64,000 nucleotides of DNA from Candidatus Latescibacterota bacterium (GTDB lineage Bacteria > Latescibacterota > UBA2968 > UBA8231). Below, piece by piece: positions 9,772 through 31,605 of this stretch. The notes under the pieces are model-generated. The model ran no database searches. It saw only the letters and a list, made by a program, of their open reading frames with translations, and was not told the DNA's origin. Each line of letters starts with the position of its first letter. Position 1 is the stretch's first letter. The DNA is taken from positions 2,176,001-2,240,000 of the forward strand of contig OZ241867.1 in NCBI GenBank assembly GCA_965203175.1, written 5' to 3'. A program made the position numbers and the translations under genes.

Positions 9772-10342
9772 GGGTGATGGGGGCATATTCTCTCGCTTAG
9801 TAGTGAGTTGATCCTGATGCGAGTTGATAGGGAACAAACCGTGCTCCGGACACTCTTGAGGACTTGCAAACGATCATCGGGGTTTTACCTGATCTTTGCG
9901 TGCGCTTAGCGCCTCACATTTTACCGGTATGATCCAACGCAATTATTGAGGACAGCGCATGTGAGCAAATCTTCACACTCCTGTGTACTGTCCAACCCAT
10001 TTCATAGAGCGAGTTCACACAAGTACATCAGAGGTGGGAACCGGTGGCCCGCAAATTGCAGTGGAACCGGCACCATGCCGAGAGGCACACTATCTGCATG
10101 CCTGCGTACCGGAAAAGGAGCCACTCACGTGCCACCTAGTGTACCCGTGCTCTATGAGCGGTCAACTCGCATTGTCTGAGGTGGTCGACCTTGCTCACCC
10201 GAGTGTTTTCCGCCGATCTGTCATCCGAGTACTGTCGAGGGACATGCAGAAGACCATCAAGGGCCTTACTGCACCTTTGCAGGCGCTCAGCGTCTTGACA
10301 GAGAATCCCAAAAGGGGCCTTATTTTACCTAATACGTTAGTT

Positions 10343-15369: not shown

Positions 15370-15411
15370 ATGGGTTGCACTTTAATCGACAAAATACGAC
15401 GGAGCAGATCG

Positions 15412-16584
15412 ATGAAGATAGCTGACGTTAGAGCATTCCCGCTGCGGATCGGTAAGTCGGAAGAGGCGTCGCAAGCGCCGACGGTCGATGGCGGCGATTA
15501 TCACGTGGATCATTCGCGGTCTATCACGATCTACTCGCCCCATCACGAGACCACCGTTATCAGGATTGAGACGGATAACGGGATCGTCGGGTGGGGCGAA
15601 GCGCAGTCGCCAGTGTCGCCGAATACCACCGCGACGATCGTGCGCGAATTGGTGCGGCCGTTGGTGATGGGGCGCGATCCATTCGACATTGAGGCGATTT
15701 GGACGTGCAACTACGATGCGATGCGGGAGCGCGGCCACCTGACGGGGTTCTACATCGATGCTCTCGCCGGGACGGACGTCGCGTTGTGGGATATCGTGGG
15801 AAAGGCTATTGGGAAGCCGGTGCACAAGATTGCGGGTGGGCGGTATCGCGATGAGATCTTGCTCTACGCAGGGATCGGTGGCACGGACCCAGTGAAGGTT
15901 GCGGATGCGGCTGAGGAACATGTGGGCTTAGGGTACCAGGCGTTGAAGTTGCACTTGCTGTTGGATGTGGCAGGCGTCGCGGAGATTTGCCGCGCCGTGC
16001 GGCAGCGCGTCGGGCCGGACATTATGCTGATGGTCGATACGCACATGCGGCAAACGGTCGCAAGCTCGATCATGCTGGGGCGCGAACTGGAGAAGCTAAG
16101 TTTTACTTGGCTGGAGGCACCGATCATACCGGACGATATCCCGGGTCAGGCTGAGATAACCCGGGCGTTGGATATGGCGGTGGCGATAGGGGAGTGGACG
16201 CGCACTCGCTACGAGATGCGCGAGCAGTTCGAGCGCCGGGCGTACGACATCTTGATGCACGACATCGCACGGACGGGGATTACCGAGGGGCATCGGATTG
16301 CGACGCTGGCCGACACCTACAACATCCCCGTCGCGCCGCACATCGGAGGTGGTGGGATCTTGGCGGTGGCGGCGACCGTCGAGTGGTCGGCGTCGTGTCC
16401 GAACTTCATGATCATGGAGCACGCCCATCACGCCAACGCGATGAAGAGTCAGATACTCAAGGAGCCGTATGAACCCGAAAACGGCTATTATAAGGTTACG
16501 GATCGGCCGGGGTTAGGTGTTGAGGTGGATGAGGCGGCGTTGGAGACGTACGCGTTTCCGGGGGTTGAACCACCCGGCGATTGA
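15412..16584 (+). CDS. Mandelate racemase/muconate lactonizing enzyme family protein
   Basis: IETDNGIVGWGE, DVALWDIVGKA.GKPV, LMVD.H, WLEAP, AIGE, RPGLGVEVD. Confidence 0.92.
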   Translation: MKIADVRAFPLRIGKSEEASQAPTVDGGDYHVDHSRSITIYSPHHETTVIRIETDNGIVGWGEAQSPVSPNTTATIVRELVRPLVMGRDPFDIEAIWTCNYDAMRERGHLTGFYIDALAGTDVALWDIVGKAIGKPVHKIAGGRYRDEILLYAGIGGTDPVKVADAAEEHVGLGYQALKLHLLLDVAGVAEICRAVRQRVGPDIMLMVDTHMRQTVASSIMLGRELEKLSFTWLEAPIIPDDIPGQAEITRALDMAVAIGEWTRTRYEMREQFERRAYDILMHDIARTGITEGHRIATLADTYNIPVAPHIGGGGILAVAATVEWSASCPNFMIMEHAHHANAMKSQILKEPYEPENGYYKVTDRPGLGVEVDEAALETYAFPGVEPPGD

Positions 16585-16600
16585 GCAAAGGAGCAATGCC

Positions 16601-17503
16601 ATGCGTTTGCAGGGCAAGGTGGCCCTGATCACTGGGGCCGGCAGCAATATTGGACGGGCCATGGCCCGGTTGTTTGCCCGCGAGGGAGCGGCGGTGGTGG
16701 TTGGCGATACGGACGAGATCGGCGGCGGCGAAACCGTGCGGCTCATTGAAGCGGCCGGGGGTCGGGCCTGTTCGGTCGCTGGCGATGTCAGCACGACGCA
16801 GGGCCTGCGTCAGAGCATCGACGGAGCGGTGGAGACGTATGGGCGGCTCGATATCTTCTTGAGCAATGCCAATTCCGGGGCCTCAGGCACCATTGCCCAG
16901 TTCGACAGGGCCGGGGCCGAAAAGCTGTTGATGGTCAACCTCATGGCGCTGATGGAAGGGGCCCACTACTGCCTGCCTCACATGCAGCAGGCCGGTGGCG
17001 GTGCGATTGTCGCTACCTCCTCGGTGCAGGCTCTGGTGGGCGTGCCTGGGCATCCGGCCTACGGGGCGGCCAAGGCGGGTATTTTGGGGGCGGTGCGCAG
17101 TATGGCGGTGGAATTGTGGCCCTACAAGGTGCGGGTCAACGCCGTGTGTCCGGGTGGTACTGAGGGCAAGACCTGGACCGTGATCGACGAATTGGGCGAA
17201 GAGTATTTGCCCGAATTCGAGGCGCGCTTTGGCAGGGAGATGCGCCATTTGCCCCTGCCCGTGCCCACGGACCCAATGGCCATTGCCCAGGCCGCGCTGT
17301 TTTTGGCCTCGGATGAAGCCAGTTATATCACCGGCCAGCATCTATCGGTCGACGCGGGCTTGGGCATGTTGCGCTACAGTGTCTTCCACGGACCGGAGCC
17401 GCTCGACACGCCGCAGGCCAGAAGCCAGCGGCACAGCGAGTTGCAAGCCGAATTCGAAGCGTGGTTGGCCGCGAAGAAGGAAGAGCGGGCGAGAGAGCCA
17501 TAA
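16601..17503 (+). CDS. Short-chain dehydrogenase/reductase
   Basis: LQGKVALITGAGSNIG, SSVQ, YGAAK, VRVNAVCPG, LFLASDEASYITG; AAGGAG RBS before ATG 16601. Confidence 0.92.
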   Translation: MRLQGKVALITGAGSNIGRAMARLFAREGAAVVVGDTDEIGGGETVRLIEAAGGRACSVAGDVSTTQGLRQSIDGAVETYGRLDIFLSNANSGASGTIAQFDRAGAEKLLMVNLMALMEGAHYCLPHMQQAGGGAIVATSSVQALVGVPGHPAYGAAKAGILGAVRSMAVELWPYKVRVNAVCPGGTEGKTWTVIDELGEEYLPEFEARFGREMRHLPLPVPTDPMAIAQAALFLASDEASYITGQHLSVDAGLGMLRYSVFHGPEPLDTPQARSQRHSELQAEFEAWLAAKKEERAREP

Positions 17504-17561
17504 GTCGCCCTAGTACTCAATGTGAGTGTGTTAGCGCTCCTGCTTGTCGGCGGTCAGTGCC

Positions 17562-18278
17562 TCAGCCGTTGGGAACCCCGCCGAGATAAATCACCTGCCC
17601 GGTGACCGCTTCGCTTTCCCGCCGCAAGAAGAAGTCCAGCACGTTTGCGACATCGGTAAAGGTCCCTAGCCGCCTGACGACCATGGGGTCGATAAGTTGC
17701 TCGATTTTGTCTTTTGGCACCCCTCGGATCATGTCGGTCTCGATCGGGGACGGGCCAATCACGTTCACGGTGATTCCGTACTCCGCTAGTTCTCTAGCCA
17801 TGACCTGCGAAAGGCTTTCCACCGACGCCTTTGACGCGGCGTACGCCGATTGACCGGCCAGCCGCATGGGAACCGCCAGTGAGCTGAAGTTGACGATGCG
17901 CCCGTACTGGCGTTTTCGCATCAGCTTCGCTGCTTCGCGGCTGACTAGAAATGTGCCCACGACGTTGGCGCTCAGCATCTTTTCGATGGAAGCCGCTGGC
18001 GTCAGCAAGAAGTGGTTCATCGAGGCGACTGCCGCGTTGTTGATTGCAGCGTCTAGCCGGCCGTAGCGCCGTTTGATCTCGCGAAACAGGGATTTGACCT
18101 GCGGTTCGTCGGAGACGTCGGCCTGCAGGTGCAGGAATCCCTCTGCCTCCCAGCCCGCGTCGCCACGGCTGCAGCCGACCACTTGGTAGCCGCAGCCGAG
18201 CAGATGCTCGACCAAGGCCCTGCCGATTCCCTTGCTGGCTCCAGTCACTAGCGCCACTGGGTTCGATTCGCCGTTCAT
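17562..18278 (-). CDS. SDR / 3-oxoacyl-ACP reductase-like (CmlJ-like position)
   Basis: VALVTGASKGIG, NNAA, YGRIVNFSS, YAASK; last gene of the ligase-halogenase-ACP operon. Confidence 0.88.
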   Translation of the reverse strand: MNGESNPVALVTGASKGIGRALVEHLLGCGYQVVGCSRGDAGWEAEGFLHLQADVSDEPQVKSLFREIKRRYGRLDAAINNAAVASMNHFLLTPAASIEKMLSANVVGTFLVSREAAKLMRKRQYGRIVNFSSLAVPMRLAGQSAYAASKASVESLSQVMARELAEYGITVNVIGPSPIETDMIRGVPKDKIEQLIDPMVVRRLGTFTDVANVLDFFLRRESEAVTGQVIYLGGVPNG

Positions 18279-18290
18279 GGGATGGCCTGC

Positions 18291-18617
18291 CTATTCGCTG
18301 ACAGCTTTCAGGGCATCGTCTGCCGGGGCACCGGACAATTCCAGGATGTAGTCCGCCAGCGCGTCAATCGTGCGGAAGGGGCTCCGTCGGCGGGAAAACG
18401 CGTCCTCGCTGACCAGTGTTACGTCGATCTGGTGCTCTTCTTCGAGAATCGACTCGACGCTGGTAATGAGGGTCACCAGCCCCATGGAGTTGATAATGGC
18501 CTCGGAACCCAACAGCGGTGAGTCGCGGTTGACCTGCACGGACTCTTCCACGCCTTCTTCTTCAAGGGCGTCAGCCGCTAGGCCGATCATCAGCTCGATT
18601 AGCTCGTCTTTCTGCAT
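18291..18617 (-). CDS. Acyl carrier protein
   Basis: Acidic 108-aa protein, PLLG....INSMGLVTLI..VE (Ser attachment site in NSM), SPFRTI.ALADYI; AAAGGA RBS. Confidence 0.85.
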   Translation of the reverse strand: MQKDELIELMIGLAADALEEEGVEESVQVNRDSPLLGSEAIINSMGLVTLITSVESILEEEHQIDVTLVSEDAFSRRRSPFRTIDALADYILELSGAPADDALKAVSE

Positions 18618-18642
18618 GTTTTTTCCTTTTGTTGAATTAGTC

Positions 18643-20367
18643 TCAGGAGATGTCGTCCTCGGCACCAACCCCGCCAAAGCGCAAGGCCGCGCGAATCTTT
18701 ACCAGATCGCCGTTCTGGTCAAATCCCCGCAGGAAGTCGCCCTCAATCAGTCGGCCGATGACCTGCACGGGCGTGCCTTGACCCTTTAACTCCTTCAACT
18801 TCCCGGCCAGCTCTCGATAGCTCAGAGGATGGCTCTTCAGGCTCGCGAAGAGCCGGCGGTGGTTTTCGGTAAGGGCGTAGGTGGTCATGGTCCGACCGTG
18901 CTCGTCAGCGATGAAATGCTGACGCTCGAGCGCGAACGAAGTCGGATGGACCTTGAAGGATGGCACTAGCCGCACCTCGTCGGCAACCCAGGTGATGCGG
19001 ACCATCCGCCCGAAATCCTTCATCAGTTGGCTGGCCCAGCGCACCCGGCGCAGCGAGAGTTCGGTCTCGTCGAAATGGTCGGTGACCTCGTTTTTGTTGT
19101 GTTGCCAGAGGTCGGCCAAGGTAGCAGCGCGCGCCTCCAGCTCTTCAACGCCCTGTGCGCCAGCGTCCACCTGCTGGCCGGAGAGCGCGGTAAACCACTC
19201 CTTGCCAGCGAACCGGCTGTCTTCCGCCCCGGCGATTTTGCGCTGCCGCCAGAACGTGGAATCGAGTGCGGAGTTGGCAGAATAGAACGCGGCTAGAAAT
19301 TGGTGATAGCGGTTGTAGGCCTCTCGATAGGACTGTTCGTACCACTGGTGGATCTCGTCGGCGTCCTGGGGATTGCGGTACAAGTGATCAATACCGGCCG
19401 CGGCCATCATTGCCGAGTAGGTCGCCAGATGTACGCCCTGTGAGAACAGCGGGTCGATGAAGCAGGCTGAGTCGCCGCAGAGAAAGGCGCGGCCCAGCGA
19501 CAGCGAGGAGGCATCATAGGCCCACTCGCGTATAACCCGCACGTCTTCGCAGCGCGTGGCATTTTCTAGGATTTCCATCGCCAGTGGACACATCTCCAAG
19601 CACTGCTGGTAGAACGTCTCGATCCCGCTGTCGCGCATCCGGGCGCTGGCGGACTTGTCGGTTACTACCCCCACGCTGTAGATGTCGTCCTGCAATGGTA
19701 TGATCCAGATCCATCCTTCCGCGAACGCAACTGAGAATATGTTGCCGTCTAGGTCGCCTTGGAACCGCTTGCCGCCCTTGTAGTAGGACCAGACCGCCAT
19801 GTTCTGGAAGTACTGGTCGAACTGCCGCATTTTCAGCTTCTTGGCGATGATGCCACGGGACCCGGAGGCGTCGATGATGAAATCGCCCTCCAGCGTGCCA
19901 CTGGAGTCGCTGTTTTTCCAGCTCACGGCGACGGGACTGCCGTTGCCGTCGGTCTGTATGTCGGTGACTTCGTGCTCCTCGCGGACATCGGCACCGCGCT
20001 CGCGGGCGGCGTTCAGTAGGATCTGATCGAATTCAGCGCGGGTTACTTGGTAGGCGTGGTCGTACACCCAAGGAGCGGTCTTGGGCGTTGAGAAAGTGAA
20101 GGTCCAGGGAGTCTGCTCTGGGCCCCAGATGAACGTCGCGGCCCGCTTCTCGACGAAATTCGCCGCCTTGATGCGGTCCATCACCCTCAGCCGGGTCAGG
20201 ATCGCCATGGTTCCGGGCAGCAGCGATTCTCCCACTCGATAGCGGGGAAACTTCTCCCGCTCGAACACGACCACATCGCGTCCTAACTTCCGCAGACAGA
20301 GCGCGGCGATGCTGCCAGCGGGTCCGCCGCCGACGATCACAACCCGCTGCACTTTGTTATTTGACAT
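18643..20367 (-). CDS. CmlS-like FADH2-dependent halogenase
   Basis: GGGPAG, FPRYRVGESLLPGT, PWTFTFSTPKTAPWVYDHA.QV.R.EFD, WIWIIP, GDSACFIDPLFSQGVHLA and C-terminal LRFGGVG; end-to-end resemblance to chloramphenicol halogenase CmlS as recalled. Confidence 0.9.
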   Translation of the reverse strand: MSNNKVQRVVIVGGGPAGSIAALCLRKLGRDVVVFEREKFPRYRVGESLLPGTMAILTRLRVMDRIKAANFVEKRAATFIWGPEQTPWTFTFSTPKTAPWVYDHAYQVTRAEFDQILLNAARERGADVREEHEVTDIQTDGNGSPVAVSWKNSDSSGTLEGDFIIDASGSRGIIAKKLKMRQFDQYFQNMAVWSYYKGGKRFQGDLDGNIFSVAFAEGWIWIIPLQDDIYSVGVVTDKSASARMRDSGIETFYQQCLEMCPLAMEILENATRCEDVRVIREWAYDASSLSLGRAFLCGDSACFIDPLFSQGVHLATYSAMMAAAGIDHLYRNPQDADEIHQWYEQSYREAYNRYHQFLAAFYSANSALDSTFWRQRKIAGAEDSRFAGKEWFTALSGQQVDAGAQGVEELEARAATLADLWQHNKNEVTDHFDETELSLRRVRWASQLMKDFGRMVRITWVADEVRLVPSFKVHPTSFALERQHFIADEHGRTMTTYALTENHRRLFASLKSHPLSYRELAGKLKELKGQGTPVQVIGRLIEGDFLRGFDQNGDLVKIRAALRFGGVGAEDDIS

Positions 20368-20386
20368 GGCGGCTAACTCTCTCCTC

Positions 20387-21730
20387 CTAGCGTCGGATCT
20401 TTTTGAAGCGGTAATTAACCTGTCCTTCGGTGACCACTTTGACCTTCACCGGGAGCATGAACGGCTGCAGGCGTCCCTTGCAGTAATCGGCAATCTGCTT
20501 GCGCATTTGAACTCCTGACACTGTTTCTTCCATCTGTACAGTAGCAGTGACGACGTGGCCCATAAGCAGGTGTTCCTCGCCCTTTACGGATACGTCGATG
20601 ACCCCGTTCATCTCGGCGATGACCTGTTCCACCTCTGCGGGGTACACCTTCTGGCCACCGACGTTAATAATGTCCGACTGCCGCCCTAGGATGCGGTAAT
20701 AGTCGCCCTCCCGGATCACCGAATCTCCAGTGTCGAACCACCCGTCCGCGTCGAATGGACTGGGCGCGTTCAGGTATCCCAGCATCGACGATTGGGCTCG
20801 GATCTGCAGCCTGCCGTCCACAACTCGGGTTTCGTAGTCCTCACCGCCTATCTTCACCAGCAGCGAATCGCTGGATGCGGACTTGGAGCGCAGGATGCCG
20901 AGTTCGCTGAGGCCGTAGGTCTGTAGGAAGCGCGCTTGCGGAAACGCTTCGTTGGCCATCCTGAGCGTGTGCTCCGGCATCACCTCGGTGCCGTAGGTGA
21001 TCAAGCGGAGCGACGAAAGGTCGTGCGATTTGTGTGCCTCGGACAGCAGCATGAGGTTCAGGAACGACGGCGATGTCGGCAGCAGTTCCACTCGGTGTTT
21101 CTCGATGGTCCGGCAGACGCTGGCAATGCTGTGGTCGGCCGCCACCACCACGCAGCCAAGGTTGGCCAGGGTGTAGCAGAGCGTGTTGAATCCGCCGATG
21201 TGATCGAATAGGAGAAACGCGAGCGTCCTGTAGCAGTGTCGGGGTTTGCGGAACTTGTTGAGCAGTTCCGGCAAGCTGTGTAGAATCGCCTTCGGTTTGC
21301 CGGTGGAGCCGGAGCTAAAGAGTACCAGTCCCGCCTTGTCTGCCGCCCGTAGTTGCTCCATTAAGGGGTGGTTGCGCTGGTTTTCGAGCTTGATCGCGAT
21401 GCCTTGATCCTGCCTGTCTATCTCTACGCGATGATCGAGCTCGGCGATCTTGAAAAACTCCTGATGCTGGTCTTGCGACTCCCACGAAAGCGGCACGAGG
21501 ATGCAACGCATCTTCAGCAACGCCAGCAAGCAGGACACCGCGCCCGGCGAGAAGTCGGCTAGCACCCCCACCGAGTCCCCGGCGCGGATACCCGCCGCCT
21601 CTAAGTGGCTGAGCCACTGCTCGTAGCGATCAGTCAGCTCGGAATAGGTACAGGCGCGATCGCGCCAGATGATGGCCGGACGATCCCCGCCTTCCCGGAA
21701 ACGCCGTAGCTGCCAGTCGATATGCTCCAT
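20387..21730 (-). CDS. AMP-dependent acyl-CoA/acyl-ACP ligase (CmlK-like)
   Basis: LFSSGSTGKPK, TYGLSE, WFDTGD, GR.SDIINVGGQKVYP.EVE, terminal K(K).R. Confidence 0.88.
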   Translation of the reverse strand: MEHIDWQLRRFREGGDRPAIIWRDRACTYSELTDRYEQWLSHLEAAGIRAGDSVGVLADFSPGAVSCLLALLKMRCILVPLSWESQDQHQEFFKIAELDHRVEIDRQDQGIAIKLENQRNHPLMEQLRAADKAGLVLFSSGSTGKPKAILHSLPELLNKFRKPRHCYRTLAFLLFDHIGGFNTLCYTLANLGCVVVAADHSIASVCRTIEKHRVELLPTSPSFLNLMLLSEAHKSHDLSSLRLITYGTEVMPEHTLRMANEAFPQARFLQTYGLSELGILRSKSASSDSLLVKIGGEDYETRVVDGRLQIRAQSSMLGYLNAPSPFDADGWFDTGDSVIREGDYYRILGRQSDIINVGGQKVYPAEVEQVIAEMNGVIDVSVKGEEHLLMGHVVTATVQMEETVSGVQMRKQIADYCKGRLQPFMLPVKVKVVTEGQVNYRFKKIRR

Positions 21731-22182
21731 CCGTTAGGCCCCGCCGGAAATAAGCACAATCTGTGCCAATTTTTACAGCAAATGGCCAACTCTCTGCGGA
21801 TGAAGGAGTTAGGGGATATTTGGAAACCACAGTAGATTTTTGGGGTGTTGCAGAATGTGGCTGCCAACCGCTCAGGCGACCTCTTTTTCTGAGGAGGATA
21901 GTCTGCAACTGATTGTTTATTAAGGGTTTTATAAGGGAAGCAGAGCGTGCGGTGCAATTTGTAGCGCATGTTGCGTTTTGCAACGAATTATAAGGGAACT
22001 TGTCTGCGGACACTGGTGCAGGATATGCGCTATCCAGCCTCACTCGTCGCGGAGGAGTGCTTTCGTTCCCGCGAAGTCTTGCCGTTTTTTATTTCGCCTC
22101 TGTGTACGATATTAAGACCTTAACAGCGTCTCCTCCCAAGACGCCTTATTATGCCCATGACTAGGAACACCAAAAGACTTCC

Positions 22183-23223
22183 ATGAATAGCATGGATGAG
22201 CTGCCAGCGTTTCCCGAGGGATGGTATTTCGTCGCAAGCCGTGAATCCATTCTGCGAGAGAAACTGATCGAGAAGAAATGGCTGGGCGAGGAAATCGTCG
22301 TCTGGTGCGACGAGGCAGGCCGCGTCTGCGTGGCCGACGCGGTATGCCCGCACCTAGGCTCGCACCTAGGGCCGGAGGCCGGCGGTCAGGTATGCAACGG
22401 TCGCCTCGTCTGTCCGTTTCACGGGTTTGAGTACGATACGACCGGCCAATGCGTTGCGACTCCGAATGCCCCGGCACCTAAAGCAGCGAAACTGAAGGTA
22501 TACGAGACGCGAGAGATCCTCGGCATGGTCTTCGCTTGGTGGGGAAGCGGAGGCCGGCCCTCGCAGTGGGACCTGCCAACCGAGCCAACCACTGGACAAG
22601 AGTGGTGTGAACTAGGATTCAACGTACTCCGGTTCCGTGGACATCCCCAGGAAACAACCGAGAACTCCGTGGACCTGGGACACCTGCGCTACGTGCATGG
22701 TTACGACAATGTAAATCTAGTCGGTTCGGTAACGGTGGACGGCGCCTACCTGAAGAGTTGCTTCGACTTCAGACGGGTTCGAAAAATTGCCGGGACGAGC
22801 AGTATGTACGATTTATCGGCCGTCACCCATGTTTACGGACTGGGCTACTCCTTCGTCGAAATCCACGAGAAGACTATCGATATGAATGCGAGATTGTGGG
22901 TACTCGCAACGCCTATCGACCGCGGGCTGGTCGAGATGGTACTGGTGAGCCAGATGCGGGAAATCCGCAGGCCCCGGCGATTCATCTCAGGCTTGGGGTT
23001 TCTGCCGATGAAGCTGCGCCACAGGCTGATGAATCGCATTTGGATGTCACAACAGCAACGGGATGTCCTGCAGGATGTGGTGATCTGGGAACGGAAGCGG
23101 TATCGGCCTACCCCTAGGCTGTGCCGCGCCGACGGCCCCATAGGGAAATACCGTCGATATTGTCGGCAGTTCTATCCTGATCCGACGATTGCGACGGGAA
23201 GTGGGGAATCGATCGCCGACTAG
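22183..23223 (+). CDS. Rieske [2Fe-2S] oxygenase/desaturase, KshA/Neverland (sterol-acting) type
   Basis: FPEGWY, CPHLG..CPFHG, ENSVDLGHLRYVHG (D-x2-H-x4-H), QDVVIWERK.Y...P.LC.ADGPI..YRRY..QFY. Confidence 0.88.
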   Translation: MNSMDELPAFPEGWYFVASRESILREKLIEKKWLGEEIVVWCDEAGRVCVADAVCPHLGSHLGPEAGGQVCNGRLVCPFHGFEYDTTGQCVATPNAPAPKAAKLKVYETREILGMVFAWWGSGGRPSQWDLPTEPTTGQEWCELGFNVLRFRGHPQETTENSVDLGHLRYVHGYDNVNLVGSVTVDGAYLKSCFDFRRVRKIAGTSSMYDLSAVTHVYGLGYSFVEIHEKTIDMNARLWVLATPIDRGLVEMVLVSQMREIRRPRRFISGLGFLPMKLRHRLMNRIWMSQQQRDVLQDVVIWERKRYRPTPRLCRADGPIGKYRRYCRQFYPDPTIATGSGESIAD

Positions 23224-23244: not shown

Positions 23245-25272
23245 TCAGACGGGCAGTTGGCGCTTCTGTTCGGCGATGTGAAACTTCAGCTTCTTGCTCG
23301 GTTTCAGCGATGGAAGCGGGCTGAACCGGAGCTTGTAGTTGGCGGGGGACACCTCGAGCGTAAAGTAATGCGCGATCAGCAGCACGTTGACAGCCAGTTG
23401 CAGTTCCATCCACCGCGAGCCGAGGCATGTGTGCGTGCCCAATCCGTACGGCGCGTACCCGGGACTGCGGTGCTCATTGCGTGGAGGCCGATAGCGATCA
23501 ATATCGAATGTGAAGGGGTCTGGGAAGACGTCGTCCATGTAATGGGGGGCCGTCTGGGCAATGTAGACCCGCGACCCCACTGGTAGTTCGTAGCCCTCGA
23601 CCACACACAAATTCATCACGTCGCGCATAGACATCGGGACAATCGGGTACATGCGCATGCACTCCATGAGGAAGCGGTGCGTGACGTCGATGGCGGATGG
23701 GGTGAAGGCTTCGCCATCTGGATCGCCGTTTTCAAACAGGGCATGGGCTTCACGGCGGATTCGGTCGTAGAGCGCAGGCTGTGAGGCCATGGCGTAAACG
23801 GCGAAGCTAAACGCATCGCCAAGGTACACGCTGGCAATCAGCGCGGCAGATAGGGCGAAGCGCAGGTTCGACTCCGGCACGAACTGCGGATCGCTCGCGT
23901 GTAGGCTTAGCCAGTCATCGGCAAGGTTGCGCGGGCAACCAGCCCGCTGGGTGGGCGTATGGACACTCTGGATCCGTTCCAGCAACGTGTCCACGGCTTT
24001 CGCCCGGCGTTTCATTCCCGGGGTTTTCAGCATGAATTTGGGCAGGGCCTTAACGACGTGCGTGCTGAGTGCTCGTTCCTTGTATTTTATTAGATCGTCG
24101 ATGATATCCTGCGTATCAACGCTGACGGAGAGGGGTGAGATTTGCGCGTTGATCATTAGTCGGCACAAGCGCGTTGCAGAGAAGGTGTCCCCAACCTTCC
24201 AATCCGCCATGTAACTACGGGCGTGATGGTAGAGTTGATCCAGCTGCGCTACCAGTCTCCCGCGTGAGTACGCCGGCCCCATAGCCTTGCGCAGCCGGAA
24301 GTGATCCGCGCCATCTAGAGAAGGCAATACTCCAGACGCACCATAGACTTTCTCGAAGTCGGCAAAGTAGTCCCGGGCTCTCAGATACATCCGCCCGTGC
24401 CGATGCACCCAGTGGTTTATCTGTGGCCCGGCGATGAAGATCATGGGTTTGGCAAACGGCGGACGGATCTCAAACACTGGGCCATACTTTTGTGTAAGCT
24501 CTGCTAAGAGCGCGGGAACGTTGCCGTCTCGCACATGGGGATTGAGCAGCAACTGACGTAGCGGGATAGCTGGAATTTGCTTGGTTAGGTGGGAACGTTG
24601 CAGTAACGGGCTGGCGATGTTTTGCTCGACCGCCTCGGCTATGGAGCGGCCGATCAAGTCCATCTGGCAGATGGACTTGATTCGCTCTTCGGCTTCGTCA
24701 TCAAGTTGGAATATGAAGCGAAAGACGTCGCACGTATTGACGAGGCAAATAACGATGATGTCTCTCGGAGTGGGTATCGCGTCGGTAAAGATATACCTCA
24801 TGATACGCAACTTGATAAACTCACCTGCTGTATCTTCTATGGAGTTGCTGTACAGTTCCGTCTGCCAGCCGGTACGAGCCAGCGTATAGAAATCGCCGTC
24901 GTGGTGATCCAGGATCTTCAGGCGAACCAAGCGGTCCAGTGTCAAATCAATGACTGACTCCGCACGGGGGGCGAGCCGTTCAATCCAGTACTGGGTGTTC
25001 TGTTGAACGGGTTCGCTTGCAATTTCTTTCAGAATGGGGTCTAAGACGGGGTTGCCCGTTTCGGTCTGGTCCACGAGGAACAGGGATTCCATGTCCGTGT
25101 CGATGCGCGACAGGAGGGAGAGCTCCGCGAGTACTGCGCCGACGACAGCGCAGTTCAAATCCCAGCCGGGTACTTGGTGAAAGTAGCCGTTCTCCTCGTT
25201 GAGGAGCAGCAGGATGAGCTCTTCGGGCAAACTGAGCGATTGGGTCGTCGAACTCTCTTTAGTAGCAGCCAT
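23245..25272 (-). CDS. GPP34/GOLPH3-domain - cytochrome P450 fusion
   Basis: N-terminal LSLPEELILLLLNEE.G...GAVLAELSL..RI...TGNPVLD.IL..I...WI.RL (GPP34); C-terminal ECMRMYP (ExxR), FDIDRY, YAPYGLGTHTCLG (heme Cys). Start at 25272 preferred over 25467, which overlaps the RND gene. Confidence 0.82.
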   Translation of the reverse strand: MAATKESSTTQSLSLPEELILLLLNEENGYFHQVPGWDLNCAVVGAVLAELSLLSRIDTDMESLFLVDQTETGNPVLDPILKEIASEPVQQNTQYWIERLAPRAESVIDLTLDRLVRLKILDHHDGDFYTLARTGWQTELYSNSIEDTAGEFIKLRIMRYIFTDAIPTPRDIIVICLVNTCDVFRFIFQLDDEAEERIKSICQMDLIGRSIAEAVEQNIASPLLQRSHLTKQIPAIPLRQLLLNPHVRDGNVPALLAELTQKYGPVFEIRPPFAKPMIFIAGPQINHWVHRHGRMYLRARDYFADFEKVYGASGVLPSLDGADHFRLRKAMGPAYSRGRLVAQLDQLYHHARSYMADWKVGDTFSATRLCRLMINAQISPLSVSVDTQDIIDDLIKYKERALSTHVVKALPKFMLKTPGMKRRAKAVDTLLERIQSVHTPTQRAGCPRNLADDWLSLHASDPQFVPESNLRFALSAALIASVYLGDAFSFAVYAMASQPALYDRIRREAHALFENGDPDGEAFTPSAIDVTHRFLMECMRMYPIVPMSMRDVMNLCVVEGYELPVGSRVYIAQTAPHYMDDVFPDPFTFDIDRYRPPRNEHRSPGYAPYGLGTHTCLGSRWMELQLAVNVLLIAHYFTLEVSPANYKLRFSPLPSLKPSKKLKFHIAEQKRQLPV

Positions 25273-25355
25273 CAGCTTTGGCTTCCCTGCATTATACCTC
25301 AATACAATAAGGCCATATTCCCTTATATAACTTTCCGGCTTAGGGGAAGCAAGTC

Positions 25356-28300
25356 TTATTCTGAGTTGAAACCAGAACTGCCGCGCGAAGCAATCAGACG
25401 CAGATGGATGGTCGAAAGAGCGGGAACGACCATCATAAGTATGGCCGTGACAAAGAGAATGCCGCAACCGAGCGATGCGGCAAAGGGGATCAGGAACTGG
25501 GCCTGAATGGCGCGTTCTAGAATGAGGGGTGTGAAGCCGAGGAAAGTAGTCACGGAAGTGAGCATAATCGGACGAAAACGTCCCTTAGCGCCCTCTATGA
25601 TCGCAGTGCGCACCGGGGTGCCTTCCCTGAGTTTCTGATCGATGAAGTCGATCATGACCAGGGAATCGTTCACTACCACGCCGCTTAGGCCGAAGATACC
25701 CATAAAGGATACCGCGCTCAGGGCTACTCCGAGGACCCAGTGCCCTAGGATCACTCCGATGAACCCGAATGGGATGACGGCCATGATGATGAACGGTTTG
25801 GTATAGGAGCGGAGAGGGATGGCAAGCAGCACGAAAATCATGATCAGGGCAATCGCAAATCCGCGACGCAGCGCACCTAGGGACTCGAGTTGCTGTTGTT
25901 GTTCACCGCCAAATGTATATGTCAGGTCCGGGTGCAAGGCGGTCAAGTCCGCGAGGATCGAATTGGCCAGGATGCTGTTGGCTTCGTCGCCGGAAATCAC
26001 GGAAGGGTCCACGTCCGCGGTGACCGTGACGACGCGCTGACCATCCTTCCGGGGAATGGCCGGCGGCGACATGCCCGAGTTGAGCGAGGCCACACTCATA
26101 ACCGGGACCTCGGCCCCGCTCGGCGTACGGAGTAGGTACCCTTCGACATCGGTGATGGAATTCCGCTCATCAGCGGGCAGGCGCACGTAAACCCGGACCT
26201 CTTCCCGGCCGCGCTGCACCCGGACGGCCTCTGCGCCGAAGAACGCGGCACGCGCTTGTCCGGCCAACTCTTCAAGCGTGAGACCGAGGGTCCGCGCCTC
26301 CGGTCGCAGTTCGAGCTGAACTTCTGGGATGCCCGGGGTGTGATCCGAGCGCACGTCGTAGACGCCTCCTATTCCACGGAGACCATCGACCACGGAGTCC
26401 GCGATCTGGACGAGGCGCTCCGGGTCTGGATGGGAAAGCACGGCCTCGACAGGGTTGCCTAGGTCGATGACTTTGCCGCTGAAGGTGATGCCGCGCACGT
26501 AGGGCAGCACACCCACTTCCTCCCGCCATGCCTGCGCGAAGTCTACGGTGGAGATCTCTCTTTGCCGCGCGCCTAGGAGCTTGAATTCGATGGTGGCGAC
26601 ATTGGCTTCCGGATTGAGGGTTGGCTCCGGATTAAGCCCCCCGCCCTGGACTCTTGGCCGCTGTCCGACGATCGCGGTTACACCGGTCAGCAGCGGAGGC
26701 GCATCTTCGGGCCGGTTGCGCGAAATTCGTTCGATAACCCGGTGGCCTGCGGCCTCCAGTTCTTTCGCCACCTCGTACGTCTGCGGCGCGGTCGCCCCAT
26801 CGGGCATCTCCAGAGTGACCGTTGCGAAATCCCCCTCGACGTCAGGGGCCAATGTAGTAGGGACGATACCCGCCCAAATCAGGGAGATACTCAACACGAG
26901 TATGCCCACGGCCCCCGCCATCGTTACCACGGGCTGGTCCGTCGCGAACCGCAGCGCCCGATCTAGAGGGCCTTGCACGAACCTGTTTAGCAGCACGTCC
27001 ACGCGACCCTGGATTCGTGCGAAGAACCGATCGAAAGCGTTTGTTGGCACCCATTCCGGGCCGTGCAAATGGGACAGGTGGTTGGGCAATACCAGCAGCG
27101 ATTCGACCAGAGAAATTAGCAGGATGGCGATCATGATGATCGGTAGTGCCCGCCATGACTCACCGATACCACCGGGGATGAACAGTAGCGGGACGAAGGC
27201 CACCACCGTAGTGAGGACTGCGAATGTCAATGGGACTTTTATCCGACGTGCGCCGCGGACCGCAGCCACGATCCCGGGTGTTCCCCGCTTGCGTTCGTAT
27301 TGGATGTGCTCGGCTACGACGATGGCATCGTCGACGATAATACCTATGGCGAGGATAAACGATAACAGGCTTTGGGCGTAGATCGCGACGTCGAGTACCA
27401 ACATGGCCGCCAGGGCGCCGATGCCCGAAACGGCGAGGCCGACGGCGACCCACAGGGCAAGCCGGATTTCGAGAAACAAGCTAAGTGCGATCAACACCAG
27501 CAACAGGCCCAGAATACCGTTCTTGAGCAGAATATCGGCGCGTTCCTCGTAGTCTTGGGATTCGTCATTCCAAATGGTGATGCCTACCCCGTCTGGCAGA
27601 GCCGGGATTACCTCGTTCGCCAAGTGCTCTCGGACGGTTGTGGCGACATCCATCACATGTTCACCATCAGCCCGGTAGACCTCGACGAATACCGCGGGAT
27701 GGTTCTGATGCCGGACAATCAGGTCGGTTTCCTGAAAACCGTCGCGAACCTCGGCGATATCGCCAAGGCGCAAAACCGTGCCGTCAGTGCCTGTGAGAAG
27801 GACGATCTCTTCGAAATCCTGTTGGTCGTAGTTCTGGCCGAGGGTCCGGACCCGCACTTGGGATTCCCGGGTATCGATACTGCCGGCAGACAAATCGAGG
27901 GAACTGCGACGAATCGTGTTGGCGATGTCGGTGAGTGTAAGTCCAAGGGCTCTTAGCCGATGGAGCGGCACCTCGATAGAGATTTCGTATTTCCGCACTC
28001 CACTGACCTCGACCTGGGACACGGAGGGAAGCGCCGTCAGTTCATCCTCGATCTGGTGCGCCAATTCCTTCAGCGAGCGCTCAGATACATCGCCATAAAC
28101 AATAAGCCGTATCATGCTCTGACGATTGGTCATCTCCTTGAATTGGGGACGTTCGGCTCTGGCTGGGAAAGACTGTATGCGATTGACGGCAGACTCGATA
28201 TCGTCCAACGCCTGCGCCATGTCCGTACCGGAATCCATTTGAATTCGGACGGATGCTATACTTGGTGCCGCTACGGACTTGACCGCCTTTACGTCATCCA

Positions 28301-31288: not shown

Positions 31289-31605
31289 ATCGCTGACCTG
31301 GCAAAATTTAACTTGATGCTTTCAATTGAGAAGGCATCATCACAAATGCGACCACATCGGCTTGAGTCTTATCGGCAATAGATGAGGGGCAACCGTCAGT
31401 CGCAAGCACGTGGCCCTAGGATGTTCGATTTTACTCTAAGAAAGTCAGCCCGTCAACCCGCAAAAGGGGTGTTTCAGTTCCCACAAAGCCTTGCGCGCTA
31501 TTTCAACATTTTGACAGATTATCGCCAAAAGGTGTCTTATTCTGTCCATGCGTTAGCTGATAGACCGGAGCAGTGCTTCGCCTGTGCCGAAGCGGAGGGA
31601 AAACC

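What the first reader, a model, noticed from the sequence alone, without database searches (positions are those of the whole stretch)
17562..21730. Stand-alone chloramphenicol-type halogenation cassette (CmlK-like ligase, CmlS-like halogenase, ACP, SDR)
Seen: a tight four-gene operon of AMP ligase, flavin halogenase, ACP and SDR. Established: CmlS is the unusual flavin halogenase linked to aliphatic dichlorination, and with CmlK and the SDR CmlJ it is tied to the dichloroacetyl group of chloramphenicol. The halogenase here resembles CmlS end to end, including the C-terminal FGGVG tail. No p-aminophenylalanine genes, NRPS CmlP, CmlH or CmlI are in the window. Inference: a portable module making a dihaloacyl-ACP or small halo-acid/haloalkane that is handed to a different acceptor or released, i.e. 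an uncharacterised organohalogen pathway.
Basis: partly seen in the sequence, partly recalled or inferred. Interest (0 to 1): 0.78.

Follow-up and report, generated by a model that had tools for sequence, protein, structure and literature searches.

The report
Stand-alone CmlS-type halogenation operon
A compact four-gene operon related to the part of the chloramphenicol pathway thought to make its dichloroacetyl group sits alone in this probably host-associated bacterium, and the same module turns out to be widespread outside chloramphenicol producers, so its product is an unknown small organohalogen.

Summary
Window 17562-21730 (minus strand) holds four intact genes 12-25 nt apart. They are an AMP-ligase (447 aa), a flavin-dependent halogenase (574 aa), a 108-aa carrier-like protein and an SDR (238 aa).

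- **Halogenase.** It matches CmlS end to end (PDB 3i3l, 596 bits; the next hit, CndH, scores 302). It carries the CmlS_C domain and the FGGVG tail.
- **Other three genes.** They are homologues of CmlK, CmlM and CmlJ (38, 36 and 43% identity to a Streptomyces cml cluster).
- **No chloramphenicol genes.** No CmlA/P/H/I/T relative is in the window.
- **The module is widespread.** All four genes travel together in all 80 best related loci, apart from three that are cut at contig ends. Only 13 of the 80 are chloramphenicol clusters, and these form a small twig nested in the halogenase tree.
- **The window's clade.** It consists of MAGs labelled Latescibacterota, Gemmatimonadetes, Acidobacteria and Binatia, and has its own gene order (K-S-M-J).
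- **The unit that moves.** Nucleotide similarity to the other-phylum MAGs L005-L008 (82-83.5%) covers exactly the four genes.

Product and substrate are inferred, not shown. The likely mechanism is a small acid loaded on the carrier and halogenated at an activated alpha-carbon. The nearest relatives differ from CmlS at the covalent-flavin Asp position (Glu here). I rate it a new variant of a known kind, of moderately high interest.

The parts
20387..21730 (-). K: CmlK-like acyl-AMP ligase (447 aa), first gene of the operon
   Evidence: Pfam AMP-binding 1.3e-39 and AMP-binding_C 1.6e-06. The motifs SGSTGKPK, YGTE, GWFDTGD and GRQSDIINVGGQKV and a C-terminal Lys are seen in the translation. It is 37.7% identical over 454 aa to the CmlK of the chloramphenicol-type locus L048. 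The best PDB relatives are MenE and 4-chlorobenzoate-CoA ligase, at about 90 bits only.
18643..20367 (-). S: CmlS-type flavin-dependent halogenase (574 aa)
   Evidence: PDB 3i3l CmlS scores 596 bits over residues 7-572. Pfam Trp_halogenase plus CmlS_C. NCBIfam halo_ClmS scores 723 bits, below the 900 cut-off. GGGPAG, GWIWIIP, K74, E47, Y354 and the FGGVG tail are conserved in 76 family members. E281 aligns with the CmlS flavin-linked Asp.
18291..18617 (-). M: CmlM-like carrier protein (108 aa), probable phosphopantetheine site Ser44
   Evidence: Ser44 is invariant (= CmlM Ser50) in a 31-member alignment. The AlphaFold2 model has pLDDT 78 with four helices, and Ser44 sits at the start of helix 2. 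The Foldseek top hits listed are almost all carrier proteins (PltL, MacpD, ACPs, DltC; TM 0.46-0.58; E 0.04-0.5). BLASTP to L048 CmlM gives E 5e-11. No Pfam, NCBIfam or PDB sequence hit.
17562..18278 (-). J: CmlJ-like short-chain dehydrogenase/reductase (238 aa), last gene
   Evidence: Pfam adh_short_C2 3.5e-49. The best NCBIfam models are FabG-type 3-oxoacyl-ACP reductases (160 bits, below their cut-offs). TGASKGIG, NNAA, Ser and YAASK are visible. It is 42.6% identical to the CmlJ of L048.
21731..22182 (.). Divergent intergenic region between K and the Rieske oxygenase gene; presumed promoter region of the operon
   Evidence: 452 nt without a listed ORF of 70 aa or more that is not an overlap. 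The consensus sigma-70 scan found nothing above shuffles, so the promoter is inferred from position only. Cross-phylum nucleotide similarity stops at about 21731-21735.

Best explanation
This is a self-contained, horizontally exchanged four-gene module of the same kind as cmlK-cmlS-cmlM-cmlJ of the chloramphenicol cluster, here working outside any chloramphenicol pathway.

Proposed mechanism, in order:

1. K adenylates a small carboxylic acid and loads it as a thioester on the phosphopantetheine arm of M (Ser44). The acid is most plausibly a beta-hydroxy or beta-keto acid such as 3-hydroxybutyrate or acetoacetate, or malonate.
2. J, a FabG-like SDR, sets the beta-carbon oxidation state, interconverting beta-hydroxy and beta-keto.
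3. S uses FADH2 from a reductase encoded elsewhere, O2 and Cl- or Br-. With its conserved Lys74/Glu47 pair it halogenates the activated alpha-carbon, probably twice.
4. C-C cleavage or decarboxylation then leaves a dihaloacetyl-type thioester on M.
5. The operon encodes no off-loading enzyme. The acyl group is therefore either hydrolysed, giving a free halo-acid or halo-ketone, or passed to an acceptor by an enzyme encoded elsewhere.

What is shown: the homology of all four genes, their universal co-occurrence, the intact catalytic motifs, the carrier fold and the absence of cml-specific genes in the window.

What is inferred: the substrate, the order of steps, the number and kind of halogens, and the fate of the product.
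For: **Homology**
- S matches CmlS over its full length at 596 bits, twice the next structure, and has the CmlS_C domain.
- K, M and J are 37.7%, 36.4% and 42.6% identical to the K, M and J of a chloramphenicol-type Streptomyces locus.

**Module integrity across the 80 best related loci**
- K is next to S in 78 loci and J in 77.
- M is next to S in 79 loci: 73 found with the window query and 6 more with the CmlM query.
- Every absence coincides with a contig end (L022, L023, L032).
- In all-against-all clustering of 1390 flanking ORFs, only these four families are universal.

**Catalytic residues**
- In 76 halogenases, Lys74 is present in 76 and Glu47 in 75 (the remaining row has a gap). The WxWxIP, FxDPxFSxG and Tyr354 positions are conserved in all 76.

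**Carrier protein**
- The model shows a carrier fold with Ser44 invariant in 31 of 31 members.
- Complex prediction of S with M gave weak support: ipSAE 0.43 (runs 0.37, 0.43, 0.47) against a best control of 0.00. The runs agreed in at least 81% of contacts and partner pLDDT was at least 77. That mark was reached by 116 of 157 solved complexes and 2 of 215 mismatched pairs. At 0.60 or under it was reached by only 18 of the 157 solved complexes and by both of the mismatches that passed.

**Independence from chloramphenicol**
- No CmlA/P/H/I/T relative is in the window.
- 13 of 80 loci carry all four of CmlA/P/H/I, 3 more carry only a CmlH-like or CmlP-like gene, and 64 carry none.
- The 12 chloramphenicol loci that entered the tree sit inside a 15-row subclade of a 76-row tree.

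**Mobility of exactly this unit**
- blastn similarity to L005-L008 (82.0-83.5%) spans window 17562/17568 to 21731/21735. Similarity to L015 (74.9%) spans 17573-21730. No flank aligns in any of these.

**Chemistry, from papers**
- cmlM, cmlJ, cmlK, cmlS and cmlT are assigned to dichloroacetylation 'partly by a process of elimination' (PMC4249514, passages read).
- Gem-dichlorination of a 1,3-dicarbonyl followed by hydrolytic C-C cleavage is the route cited for chloramphenicol (PMC13625728, passage read).
- A malonyl enolate stabilised by a tyrosine is the alternative cited (PMC8407142, passage read).
- Related loci carry different off-loading candidates next to the module: GNAT, alpha/beta-hydrolase, FeeM-like acyltransferase, or amidase plus NRPS. 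This fits a generic acyl-donor module.
Against: - No substrate or product is known for any member of the family. For CmlS itself the role rests on in vivo work (PMC8407142 passage), and one review table lists it as acting on free substrates.
- The window's halogenase is only 45-47% identical to the named CmlS proteins and scores below NCBI's equivalog cut-off (723 against 900). The substrate may therefore differ.
- The position aligned to the CmlS flavin-linking Asp is Glu here. It is Glu in 24 of 29 members of clades a and b, so cofactor handling may differ.
- K's closest solved relatives are aromatic-acid ligases (MenE, 4-chlorobenzoate-CoA ligase). The original authors speculated about an aromatic acid substrate (PMC4249514 passage).
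- Among the 49 ORFs scanned, the window encodes no PPTase, flavin reductase, thioesterase or acyltransferase. The pathway as drawn depends on genes not seen.
- The S-M complex prediction is only weak support.
- Sequence models do not recognise M as a carrier protein.
Confidence: 0.6

Rival explanations
1. The operon is the dichloroacetyl branch of a complete chloramphenicol-like pathway, and the aminophenylalanine, NRPS, amidase and N-oxygenase genes lie elsewhere in the genome.
For: Only 64 kb of the genome is visible. All four genes are homologous to the cml genes.
Against: In the 13 chloramphenicol-type loci the cml-specific genes lie directly beside the cassette. None is in the window, nor within up to 10 kb of any of the 32 loci of clades a and b (L001-L032). 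The window's clade is separated from the chloramphenicol subclade by the longest inner branches of the tree. The cassette moves between phyla as a four-gene block without partners.
Confidence: 0.04
2. The module halogenates an aromatic or heteroaromatic acid tethered to the carrier, as in the PltF/PltL/PltA or Bmp systems. The result would be a small halogenated aromatic of the kind known from marine invertebrates.
For: K's best solved relatives are aryl-acid ligases (MenE 90 bits, 4-chlorobenzoate-CoA ligase 87 bits). Piraee and colleagues speculated that CmlK adenylates an aromatic acid (quoted in PMC4249514, passage read). The best fold match of M is PltL. A 2026 preprint treats halogenase plus AMP-ligase clusters in sponge microbiomes as candidates for brominated alkaloids (10.64898/2026.08.03.742642; abstract and section 14 read).
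Against: The halogenase scores 596 bits to CmlS but 148-155 to PltA, Mpy16 and ChlB4 and about 109 to Bmp2. It keeps the whole CmlS_C domain and tail. As I recall from the CmlS structure paper, which I could not read, this domain closes the site to a small substrate. No prolyl-carrier dehydrogenase or aromatic-acid-forming enzyme lies in the operon. A FabG-like SDR has no obvious role in such a route.
Confidence: 0.13
3. The module works on a longer beta-ketoacyl chain and, together with the neighbouring Rieske oxygenase and GPP34-P450 genes, makes or modifies a halogenated lipid or sterol-like compound.
For: K's best NCBIfam model is a long-chain fatty-acid-CoA ligase subfamily (172 bits, below its cut-off). 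J resembles FabG. The Rieske and P450 genes lie directly upstream in the window and in L009.
Against: The Rieske and P450 genes accompany the cassette in only 1 of the 5 closest loci (L009; absent in L001-L004) and in no other clade. They are divergently or oppositely transcribed. Cross-phylum similarity ends at the cassette borders.
Confidence: 0.1
4. The flavoenzyme is not a halogenase here. It would be a hydroxylase or other monooxygenase acting on a carrier-bound acid, so no organohalogen is made.
For: The second-best NCBIfam model is the flavin monooxygenase QhpG (189 bits). The Asp-to-Glu change at the flavin-linking position shows some divergence from CmlS.
Against: The halogenase-specific features are all kept: Lys74 and the WxWxIP block are invariant in 76 of 76 and Glu47 in 75 of 76 with one gap. 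The similarity to CmlS is nearly four times that to QhpG in bits (723 against 189).
Confidence: 0.05

Closest known systems
cmlM-cmlJ-cmlK-cmlS of the chloramphenicol gene cluster (Streptomyces venezuelae sven0925-0928)
   Same: The same four protein families sit adjacent and co-directional. CmlM is also 108 aa with the same Ser (S50 = S44 here). The halogenase aligns end to end, including the C-terminal domain and the FGGVG tail (PMC4249514 passages).
   Different: - Gene order is K-S-M-J instead of M-J-K-S.
- Identities are only 36-46%.
- No CmlA/P/H/I/T is present.
- No cmlL-type PPTase or cmlN-type antiporter was found in the window among the 49 ORFs scanned.
- Glu replaces the flavin-linking Asp.
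- The lineage differs (Latescibacterota-like MAG relatives).
Stand-alone CmlKSMJ-type modules of soil Gemmatimonadota and Acidobacteriota (clade b) and of Sorangium, Pseudomonas, Bradyrhizobium and many actinomycetes (clade c without cml genes)
   Same: The same four genes occur without the chloramphenicol-specific genes.
   Different: These loci carry extra genes that the window lacks:
- a GNAT between K and J (12 loci);
- a PPTase and a Na+/H+ exchanger (21 and 20 sources);
- a hexapeptide transferase, a Ser_hydrolase and a FeeM-like acyltransferase.

I found no paper describing any of them.
CndH (chondrochloren) and carrier-dependent halogenases PltA, Mpy16 and Bmp2
   Same: They share the flavin-dependent halogenase fold, the catalytic Lys and use of a carrier-protein partner.
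   Different: They score far lower (302, 148, 153 and 109 bits). They align only over the N-terminal ~380 residues and lack the CmlS_C domain. Their substrates are aromatic or pyrrolic.
'Halo_AMP' pseudoclass of sponge-microbiome gene clusters (Loureiro et al. 2026 preprint)
   Same: The class is defined by an FADH2-dependent halogenase plus an AMP-binding enzyme. 9% of its families are assigned to Latescibacterota, and the figure legend lists ACP and 'ACP reductase' genes (abstract and section 14 read).
   Different: The preprint's main text mentions neither CmlS nor chloramphenicol and aims at brominated peptidic alkaloids. I could not tell whether this exact cassette is among its families, because the preprint's supplements are closed.
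Gem-dichlorinating flavin halogenases acting on 1,3-dicarbonyls (fungal AoiQ; recalled: CtoA of chlorotonil)
   Same: They follow the same proposed chemical logic: double halogenation of an activated methylene, followed in some cases by C-C cleavage (PMC13625728 passage; AoiQ reference seen in reference lists only).
   Different: They act on free polyketide substrates, are not part of a ligase/carrier/SDR module, and were not shown to be related beyond the halogenase superfamily (not tested here).

Membership tests
CmlS-type flavin-dependent halogenase | Flavin-binding GxGxxG, the WxWxIP block and the FxxPxxSxG motif of flavin-dependent halogenases (motif names recalled) | tested here: met
   GGGPAG (13-18), GWIWIIP (218-224) and FIDPLFSQG (303-311) are present. 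The checked positions are invariant in 76 family members, apart from one gapped row at the N-terminus.
CmlS-type flavin-dependent halogenase | Catalytic Lys and nearby Glu (K71 and E44 in CmlS; numbers recalled, positions derived from the 3i3l alignment) | tested here: met
   K74 is present in 76 of 76 members. E47 is present in 75 of 76, with one gap.
CmlS-type flavin-dependent halogenase | C-terminal CmlS_C domain with the FGGVG tail | tested here: met
   PF22045 scores 98.2 bits against a cut-off of 27, covering residues 444-559. The F-G-G-V-G tail is at 564-568. The second position is G in 29 of 29 members of clades a and b, and D in 32 of 47 members of clade c.
CmlS-type flavin-dependent halogenase | Covalent flavin-aspartate bond (the Asp is given in the title of the structure paper; residue number 277 is recalled) | tested here: not met
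   The aligned residue is Glu281. It is Glu in 24 of 29 members of clades a and b, and Asp in 45 of 47 members of clade c. Whether Glu can form the same link cannot be tested here.
CmlS-type flavin-dependent halogenase | Score at or above NCBIfam's equivalog cut-off for 'chloramphenicol-biosynthetic halogenase CmlS' | tested here: not met
   NF033113 scores 723.2 bits against a cut-off of 900. It is still by far the best model; the next scores 189 bits.
CmlS-type flavin-dependent halogenase | Halide- and FADH2-dependent halogenation of an aliphatic activated carbon | not testable with these tools
   This needs enzymology. In the papers I read it was not reported in vitro even for CmlS (PMC8407142 passages).
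Chloramphenicol biosynthetic gene cluster | NRPS CmlP, amidase CmlH, N-oxygenase CmlI and beta-hydroxylase CmlA beside the halogenation genes | tested here: not met
   tblastn of the S. venezuelae proteins against the window gave a best E of 0.5. They are present in 13 of 80 related loci, none of them in the window's clade.
Chloramphenicol biosynthetic gene cluster | p-aminophenylalanine genes (cmlB/C/D, papABC) | tested here: inconclusive
   No query sequences were on hand. Pfam scans of 49 window ORFs showed no chorismate-utilising or prephenate dehydrogenase family. The rest of the genome was not seen.
CmlK/S/M/J four-gene module | Ligase, halogenase, CmlM-type carrier and SDR encoded side by side on one strand | tested here: met
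   The gaps are 19, 25 and 12 nt. Reciprocal similarity to the L048 genes holds. The genes co-occur in 80 of 80 loci where contigs allow.
CmlK/S/M/J four-gene module | Gene order M-J-K-S as in Streptomyces | tested here: not met
   The order here is K-S-M-J. This order is shared by 16 loci (L001-L015, L030). Clade b has S-M-K-(GNAT)-J.
Acyl/peptidyl carrier protein (PF00550 PP-binding) | Match to the PP-binding sequence model | tested here: not met
   0 of 31 family members match, even at E<=10. No NCBIfam hit. No PDB sequence hit. The Atlas's nearest named cluster is PP-binding at only 0.89, with 23% of its members carrying the family.
Acyl/peptidyl carrier protein (PF00550 PP-binding) | Four-helix carrier fold with the modified Ser at the N-terminus of helix 2 | tested here: met
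   The AF2 model has pLDDT 78.4, helices at 3-20, 44-62, 71-75 and 84-95, and an invariant Ser44. The Foldseek list is dominated by carrier proteins, with TM 0.46-0.58 normalised to the query and up to 0.75 normalised to the target, but no hit reaches E<=0.001.
Acyl/peptidyl carrier protein (PF00550 PP-binding) | Phosphopantetheinylation of the Ser | not testable with these tools
   No PPTase gene was found among the 49 window ORFs scanned. PPTase genes lie beside the module in 21 of 81 sources.
Carrier-dependent pyrrole/aryl halogenation systems (Plt, Bmp, Mpy) | Halogenase of the PltA/Bmp2 type plus a prolyl-carrier dehydrogenase | tested here: not met
   PltA scores 148, Mpy16 153 and Bmp2 109 bits, against 596 for CmlS. 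No acyl-CoA dehydrogenase family gene lies in or beside the operon.

The most novel reading that the evidence does not exclude
The four genes may be a complete generator of dihaloacetyl (or trihaloacetyl) thioesters from central metabolites, with its product simply released. Uncultivated bacteria would then be making dihaloacetate, halo-ketones or haloforms enzymatically and on purpose. These bacteria are the host-associated Latescibacterota, Acidobacteriota and Gemmatimonadota here, and the soil Gemmatimonadota and Acidobacteriota of the sister clade. That would give a dedicated flavin-dependent source for natural haloacetic acids and haloforms. In the one soil paper I read, these compounds are attributed to unspecific haloperoxidases (PMC4926216 passages). 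Chloramphenicol's dichloroacetyl branch would then be a late recruitment of this older module.
Probability: 0.2. Interest if true: 0.85.

Novelty: new variant of a known kind. Interest (0 to 1): 0.62.

Why it matters
CmlS is usually presented as a one-off enzyme of chloramphenicol biosynthesis. How the dichloroacetyl group is made has stayed unresolved since the genes were found. In the papers I read, the roles of cmlM, cmlJ, cmlK and cmlS are called 'obscure' (PMC4249514) and the enzyme is only 'implicated through in vivo studies' (PMC8407142).

This analysis changes the picture in three ways.

- **The cassette is the common form.** The four-gene module is conserved and mobile, and chloramphenicol is one specialised user of it.
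- **It offers a clean test system.** A minimal operon with no other pathway genes around it is the simplest setting in which to reconstitute the chemistry and identify the substrate.
- **It points to unknown products.** Small halogenated metabolites would be made by uncultivated bacteria of several phyla, with different off-loading enzymes in different lineages (GNAT, hydrolase, FeeM-like transferase, amidase plus NRPS).

If the product is a released halo-acid or haloform, the finding also bears on natural organohalogen budgets.

Tried and rejected
- **Sequence searches for the carrier protein.** Pfam, NCBIfam and PDB sequences all returned nothing. Only fold comparison and family alignment identified it.
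- **Protein Atlas look-up of M.** The nearest clusters are unnamed. It gave only a weak PP-binding lead (0.89).
- **Search for longer proteins carrying a CmlM-like domain.** I hoped for fusions to a ligase, halogenase or transferase. It found one protein of 561 aa with an MFS transporter domain, which is no useful link. The tool itself says finding few is weak evidence.
- **Promoter and terminator consensus scan of 17300-22400.** Counts were no higher than in shuffles, so nothing is claimed from it.
- **Base composition.** The cassette (GC about 0.58-0.62) does not stand out from the window, so composition gives no sign of recent transfer. The transfer argument rests only.
- **Literature.**
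  - Searches found no paper describing CmlS-type cassettes outside chloramphenicol producers, and no in vitro substrate for CmlS.
  - Search 55 (CmlS + D277) returned only unrelated papers.
  - The CmlS structure paper is not held. Residue numbers K71, E44, D277 and Y350 and the 'small closed pocket' argument are therefore recalled, and were checked only for consistency against the 3i3l alignment.
  - Search 63 gave the forest-soil survey used as context.
- **Neighbouring genes.** I considered SDR2 (16517-17503) and the MR_MLE dehydratase (15370-16584) as parts of the system and rejected them. They accompany the cassette only in the closest five loci, are convergently transcribed, and look like sugar-acid catabolism.
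- **Left unchecked.**
  - The metagenome and viral contig collections, which were closed.
  - The supplements of the 2026 preprint, which were closed.

Full report
**What is there**

On the minus strand of window 17562-21730 lie four intact genes, separated by 19, 25 and 12 nt.

- **K (20387-21730, 447 aa)** is an adenylate-forming ligase. It matches Pfam AMP-binding at 1.3e-39 and AMP-binding_C. The usual core motifs are visible in the translation.
- **S (18643-20367, 574 aa)** is a flavin-dependent halogenase. It matches Trp_halogenase at 2.1e-48 and the CmlS C-terminal domain PF22045 at 98 bits against a cut-off of 27.
- **M (18291-18617, 108 aa)** starts at the ATG behind an AGGA-type site. 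The longer listed ORF starts at a TTG inside S.
- **J (17562-18278, 238 aa)** is a classical SDR. Its best NCBIfam models are FabG-type 3-oxoacyl-ACP reductases, all below their cut-offs.

Upstream of K is a 452-nt gap, followed by a divergently transcribed Rieske oxygenase gene. Downstream of J a second SDR gene converges on the operon. The operon is therefore exactly four genes.

**Is the halogenase CmlS-like?**

Yes, and clearly so.

- Against all PDB sequences the best hit is CmlS (3i3l), at E 5.8e-178 and 596 bits, covering residues 7-572 of 574.
- CndH follows at 302 bits and aligns only over the first ~380 residues.
- The carrier-dependent pyrrole and aryl halogenases score much lower: ChlB4 155, Mpy16 153, PltA 148 and Bmp2 about 109 bits.
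- The tail reads RFGGVGAEDDIS, against HFGGVGVEYEV in CmlS.
- In an alignment of 76 family halogenases several features are invariant apart from one gapped row. These are the flavin-binding glycines, the WxWxIP block, Lys74 and Glu47 (the positions of the CmlS catalytic Lys and Glu by the 3i3l alignment), Tyr354 and the F-x-G-V-G tail.

Two features separate it from CmlS proper.

- It scores 723 bits on NCBI's CmlS equivalog model, whose cut-off is 900.
- The residue aligned with the Asp that links the flavin covalently in CmlS is Glu281. That position is Glu in 24 of 29 members of the window's two clades and Asp in 45 of 47 members of the clade that contains CmlS. The Asp is named in the title of the structure paper. 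Its number, 277, is recalled, because the paper is not held.

**The 'ACP'**

No sequence model recognises M.

- Pfam gave nothing for it or for 30 relatives, even at E<=10.
- NCBIfam gave nothing.
- PDB sequences gave nothing at E<=10.

It is nevertheless the counterpart of CmlM (sven0925). That protein is likewise 108 aa and was called an ACP on Phyre2 evidence, with Ser50 as the modified residue (PMC4249514, passages read).

- In a 31-member alignment that Ser (Ser44 here) is invariant. So is a family-specific S-x-x-x-S-P-F block.
- An AlphaFold2 model built on that alignment (mean pLDDT 78.4) has four helices, with Ser44 at the start of helix 2.
- Almost every structure in the Foldseek list is a carrier protein (PltL, MacpD, ACPs, DltC). 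TM is 0.46-0.58 normalised to the query and up to 0.75 normalised to the target. No hit reaches E<=0.001.
- A complex prediction of S with M gave weak support only. The ipSAE was 0.43 (runs 0.37, 0.43, 0.47) against a best control of 0.00. The runs shared at least 81% of contacts and the partner's pLDDT was at least 77. That mark was reached by 116 of 157 solved complexes and 2 of 215 mismatched pairs. At 0.60 or under it was reached by only 18 of the solved complexes and by both of the mismatches that passed.

**Relatives and synteny**

A protein search found 3989 relatives among 8000 scored candidates.

- The closest (94-60% identity) come from metagenomes. Where they are named, the names are 'NAD(P)/FAD-dependent oxidoreductase' of Gemmatimonadetes, Gemmatimonadaceae or Vicinamibacterales.
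- Proteins named CmlS appear only from rank 100, at 45-47% identity.

A scan of one genome per species found 586 encoded relatives, of which the best 80 loci were kept. In these 80:

- K lies beside S in 78 and J in 77.
- M lies beside S in 79: 73 found with the window query and 6 more with the CmlM query.
- The missing cases (L022, L023, L032) are all cut by a contig end.

Clustering 1390 flanking ORFs showed that only these four families are universal.

Three gene orders occur.

- K-S-M-J: the window and 16 loci.
- S-M-K-(GNAT)-J: 15 loci of soil-type Gemmatimonadota and Acidobacteriota.
- M...J-K...S, with variants: 48 loci of actinomycetes, Sorangium, Pseudomonas, Bradyrhizobium and others.

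**Relation to chloramphenicol**

I used S. venezuelae CmlA, CmlP, CmlH, CmlI and CmlT as queries.

- 13 of the 80 loci carry all four of CmlA/P/H/I directly beside the cassette.
- Three more carry only a CmlH-like or CmlP-like gene.
- 64 carry none.
- The window has no match better than E 0.5. None of the 49 window ORFs scanned with Pfam belongs to an NRPS, amidase, aminodeoxychorismate or prephenate dehydrogenase family.

I built a maximum-likelihood tree of 76 halogenases (quick search, midpoint root; five loci were left out because their ORFs were short or broken).

- The window sits in a fully supported six-row group with L001-L004 and L009.
- That group lies inside the K-S-M-J clade (14 rows), which is sister to the soil clade (15 rows).
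- The 12 chloramphenicol loci in the tree (L078 was one of the five left out) are nested in a 15-row subclade of the 47-row third clade.

Chloramphenicol is thus one user of a much more widespread module.

**Mobility**

At nucleotide level the window is collinear with L009 (a Latescibacterota chromosome record) at 93% over 15.4 kb. It is also collinear with L004, L001 and L002 at 88-92%. The window therefore comes from a close relative of those MAGs.

Against MAGs labelled Vicinamibacterales, Acidobacteria and Binatia (L005-L008), similarity is 82.0-83.5%. It runs from window 17562/17568 to 21731/21735 and nowhere else. L015 aligns at 74.9% over 17573-21730. The unit shared across these lineages is exactly the four genes. 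MAG taxonomic labels are as given in the records and may be imprecise.

**What surrounds the module elsewhere**

Accessory genes differ by lineage.

- A GNAT lies between K and J in 12 soil-type loci.
- A polysaccharide-deacetylase-family gene, a PPTase and a Na+/H+ exchanger lie upstream in many loci. The PPTase occurs in 21 sources and the exchanger in 20 sources, out of 81.
- An alpha/beta-hydrolase lies before K in 8 K-S-M-J loci.
- A SulP anion transporter follows J in three loci.
- The third clade has a hexapeptide transferase, a PF06821 serine hydrolase, a ~295-aa weakly GNAT-like protein and a FeeM-like N-acyl amino acid synthase. In Bradyrhizobium these sit beside an SbnA/SbnB-like pair.

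The PPTase and antiporter mirror cmlL and cmlN of S. venezuelae. Deleting either of those lowers chloramphenicol titre to about 40% (PMC4249514, passages read). The window and its five nearest relatives have none of these genes next to the operon.

**How it most likely works**

Shown here:

- four-way homology to the cml genes;
- strict co-occurrence of the four genes;
- intact catalytic and carrier residues;
- a carrier fold for M;
- no cml-specific genes in the window.

Inferred from the literature on chloramphenicol:

1. K loads a small acid on holo-M.
2. J sets the beta-carbon oxidation state.
3. S halogenates the activated alpha-carbon, probably twice.
4. C-C cleavage or decarboxylation leaves a dihaloacetyl-type thioester.

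The cited routes are gem-dichlorination of a 1,3-dicarbonyl followed by hydrolytic cleavage (PMC13625728 passage) or halogenation of a malonyl enolate held by a tyrosine (PMC8407142 passage). Neither has been demonstrated in vitro according to those texts.

The varied off-loading candidates in other lineages fit a generic acyl-donor module. Here the acyl group must either be hydrolysed or be taken by an enzyme encoded elsewhere. Which halide is used is open; one review table lists Cl and Br for CmlS (PMC8407142).

**Rivals**

- A split chloramphenicol pathway is very unlikely, given the nesting and the compact cml clusters.
- An aromatic-acid route has some support. K's nearest solved relatives are aryl-acid ligases, and the early authors speculated along this line. 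It fits poorly with the CmlS-type enzyme and with the SDR.
- A link to the neighbouring Rieske and P450 genes is weak. They accompany the cassette in only one of the five closest loci.
- A non-halogenating role is unlikely, because the halogenase-specific residues are kept.

**Known or new**

Six full-text searches found no description of CmlS-type cassettes outside chloramphenicol producers.

A 2026 preprint defines a 'Halo_AMP' class of halogenase-plus-ligase clusters in sponge microbiomes. 9% of its families are from Latescibacterota, and ACP and 'ACP reductase' genes appear in its figure legend. Its main text mentions neither CmlS nor chloramphenicol. Its supplements, which might list this cassette, are closed.

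I therefore file the operon as a new variant of a known kind. It has the same four-gene module but a different order, clade, flavin-linking residue and context, and an unknown product.

**Limits**

- Substrate, product and halide are not determined.
- The rest of the genome was not searched.
- The tree is midpoint-rooted and has no outgroup.
- The residue numbers for CmlS and the argument that its C-terminal domain encloses a small pocket are recalled.
- My reading of the related MAGs and of the window as host-associated (probably sponge-associated) rests on recall of isolate-name series and on three large ankyrin-repeat genes in the window, not on a call.

Noticed in passing
window 9983-12638: A DNA methylase (602 aa, N6_N4_Mtase) and an NgoMIV-type restriction enzyme (284 aa) sit in a stretch of GC 0.49, against about 0.58 around it. 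The otherwise collinear locus L004 lacks about 3 kb here, so this looks like an inserted restriction-modification island.
   Followed up: partly
window 23245-25467 (-) and 22183-23223 (+): A single ORF combines a GPP34 (GOLPH3-like) domain with a cytochrome P450 domain. It is conserved at 89% in L009. Beside it lies a KshA-type Rieske oxygenase with a weak hit to a bacterial 4beta-methylsterol monooxygenase model. This may be a sterol-type oxidation pair, and the domain fusion is unusual.
   Followed up: partly
window 56663-63817 (-): Three large ankyrin-repeat proteins (738, 690 and 782 aa) lie in a row, and AT skew there is strongly negative (-0.38 to -0.48). Eukaryote-like repeat proteins of this kind suggest a host-associated lifestyle.
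   Followed up: no
window 297-1073, 7548-8366, 31573-32409, 43771-44613: Four separate PhyH-family (phytanoyl-CoA dioxygenase-like) genes occur in 64 kb.
   Followed up: no
window 4671-7364 (+): An 897-aa protein combines a CotH kinase domain, a lamin-tail domain, a FlgD-Ig domain and a weak Por secretion tail.
   Followed up: no
L018 7944-9955, L021 7845-9952 and 19-20 further loci: A PPTase gene and a Na+/H+ exchanger gene recur beside the four-gene module in soil Gemmatimonadota and in actinomycetes. This parallels cmlL and cmlN of S. venezuelae. Why an ion exchanger travels with a halogenation module is unexplained; halide or pH handling is one guess (PMC4249514).
   Followed up: partly
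L005 12830-14500, L006 5664-7370, L007 12786-14474: A SulP-family anion transporter with a STAS domain directly follows the SDR gene in three K-S-M-J loci. It is a possible halide or product transporter.
   Followed up: no
L076 11726-16199 (Bradyrhizobium sp. ARR65): The module is followed by an ornithine-cyclodeaminase-like gene, a PLP-dependent enzyme and a FeeM-like acyltransferase. From recall, the cyclodeaminase-like and PLP-dependent pair resembles SbnB/SbnA, which make diaminopropionate. This hints at an N-haloacyl amino acid product in that lineage.
   Followed up: no
L078 8462-11703 (S. venezuelae ATCC 10712 strain L12 record): In this assembly cmlK and cmlS each appear split into two overlapping ORFs, probably through assembly frameshifts. 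I therefore used L048 as the clean chloramphenicol reference.
   Followed up: partly
protein P0122 (561 aa): This is the only longer protein found that carries a CmlM-like domain. The domain is joined to an MFS transporter domain. It may be a gene-calling fusion or a real carrier-transporter fusion.
   Followed up: no
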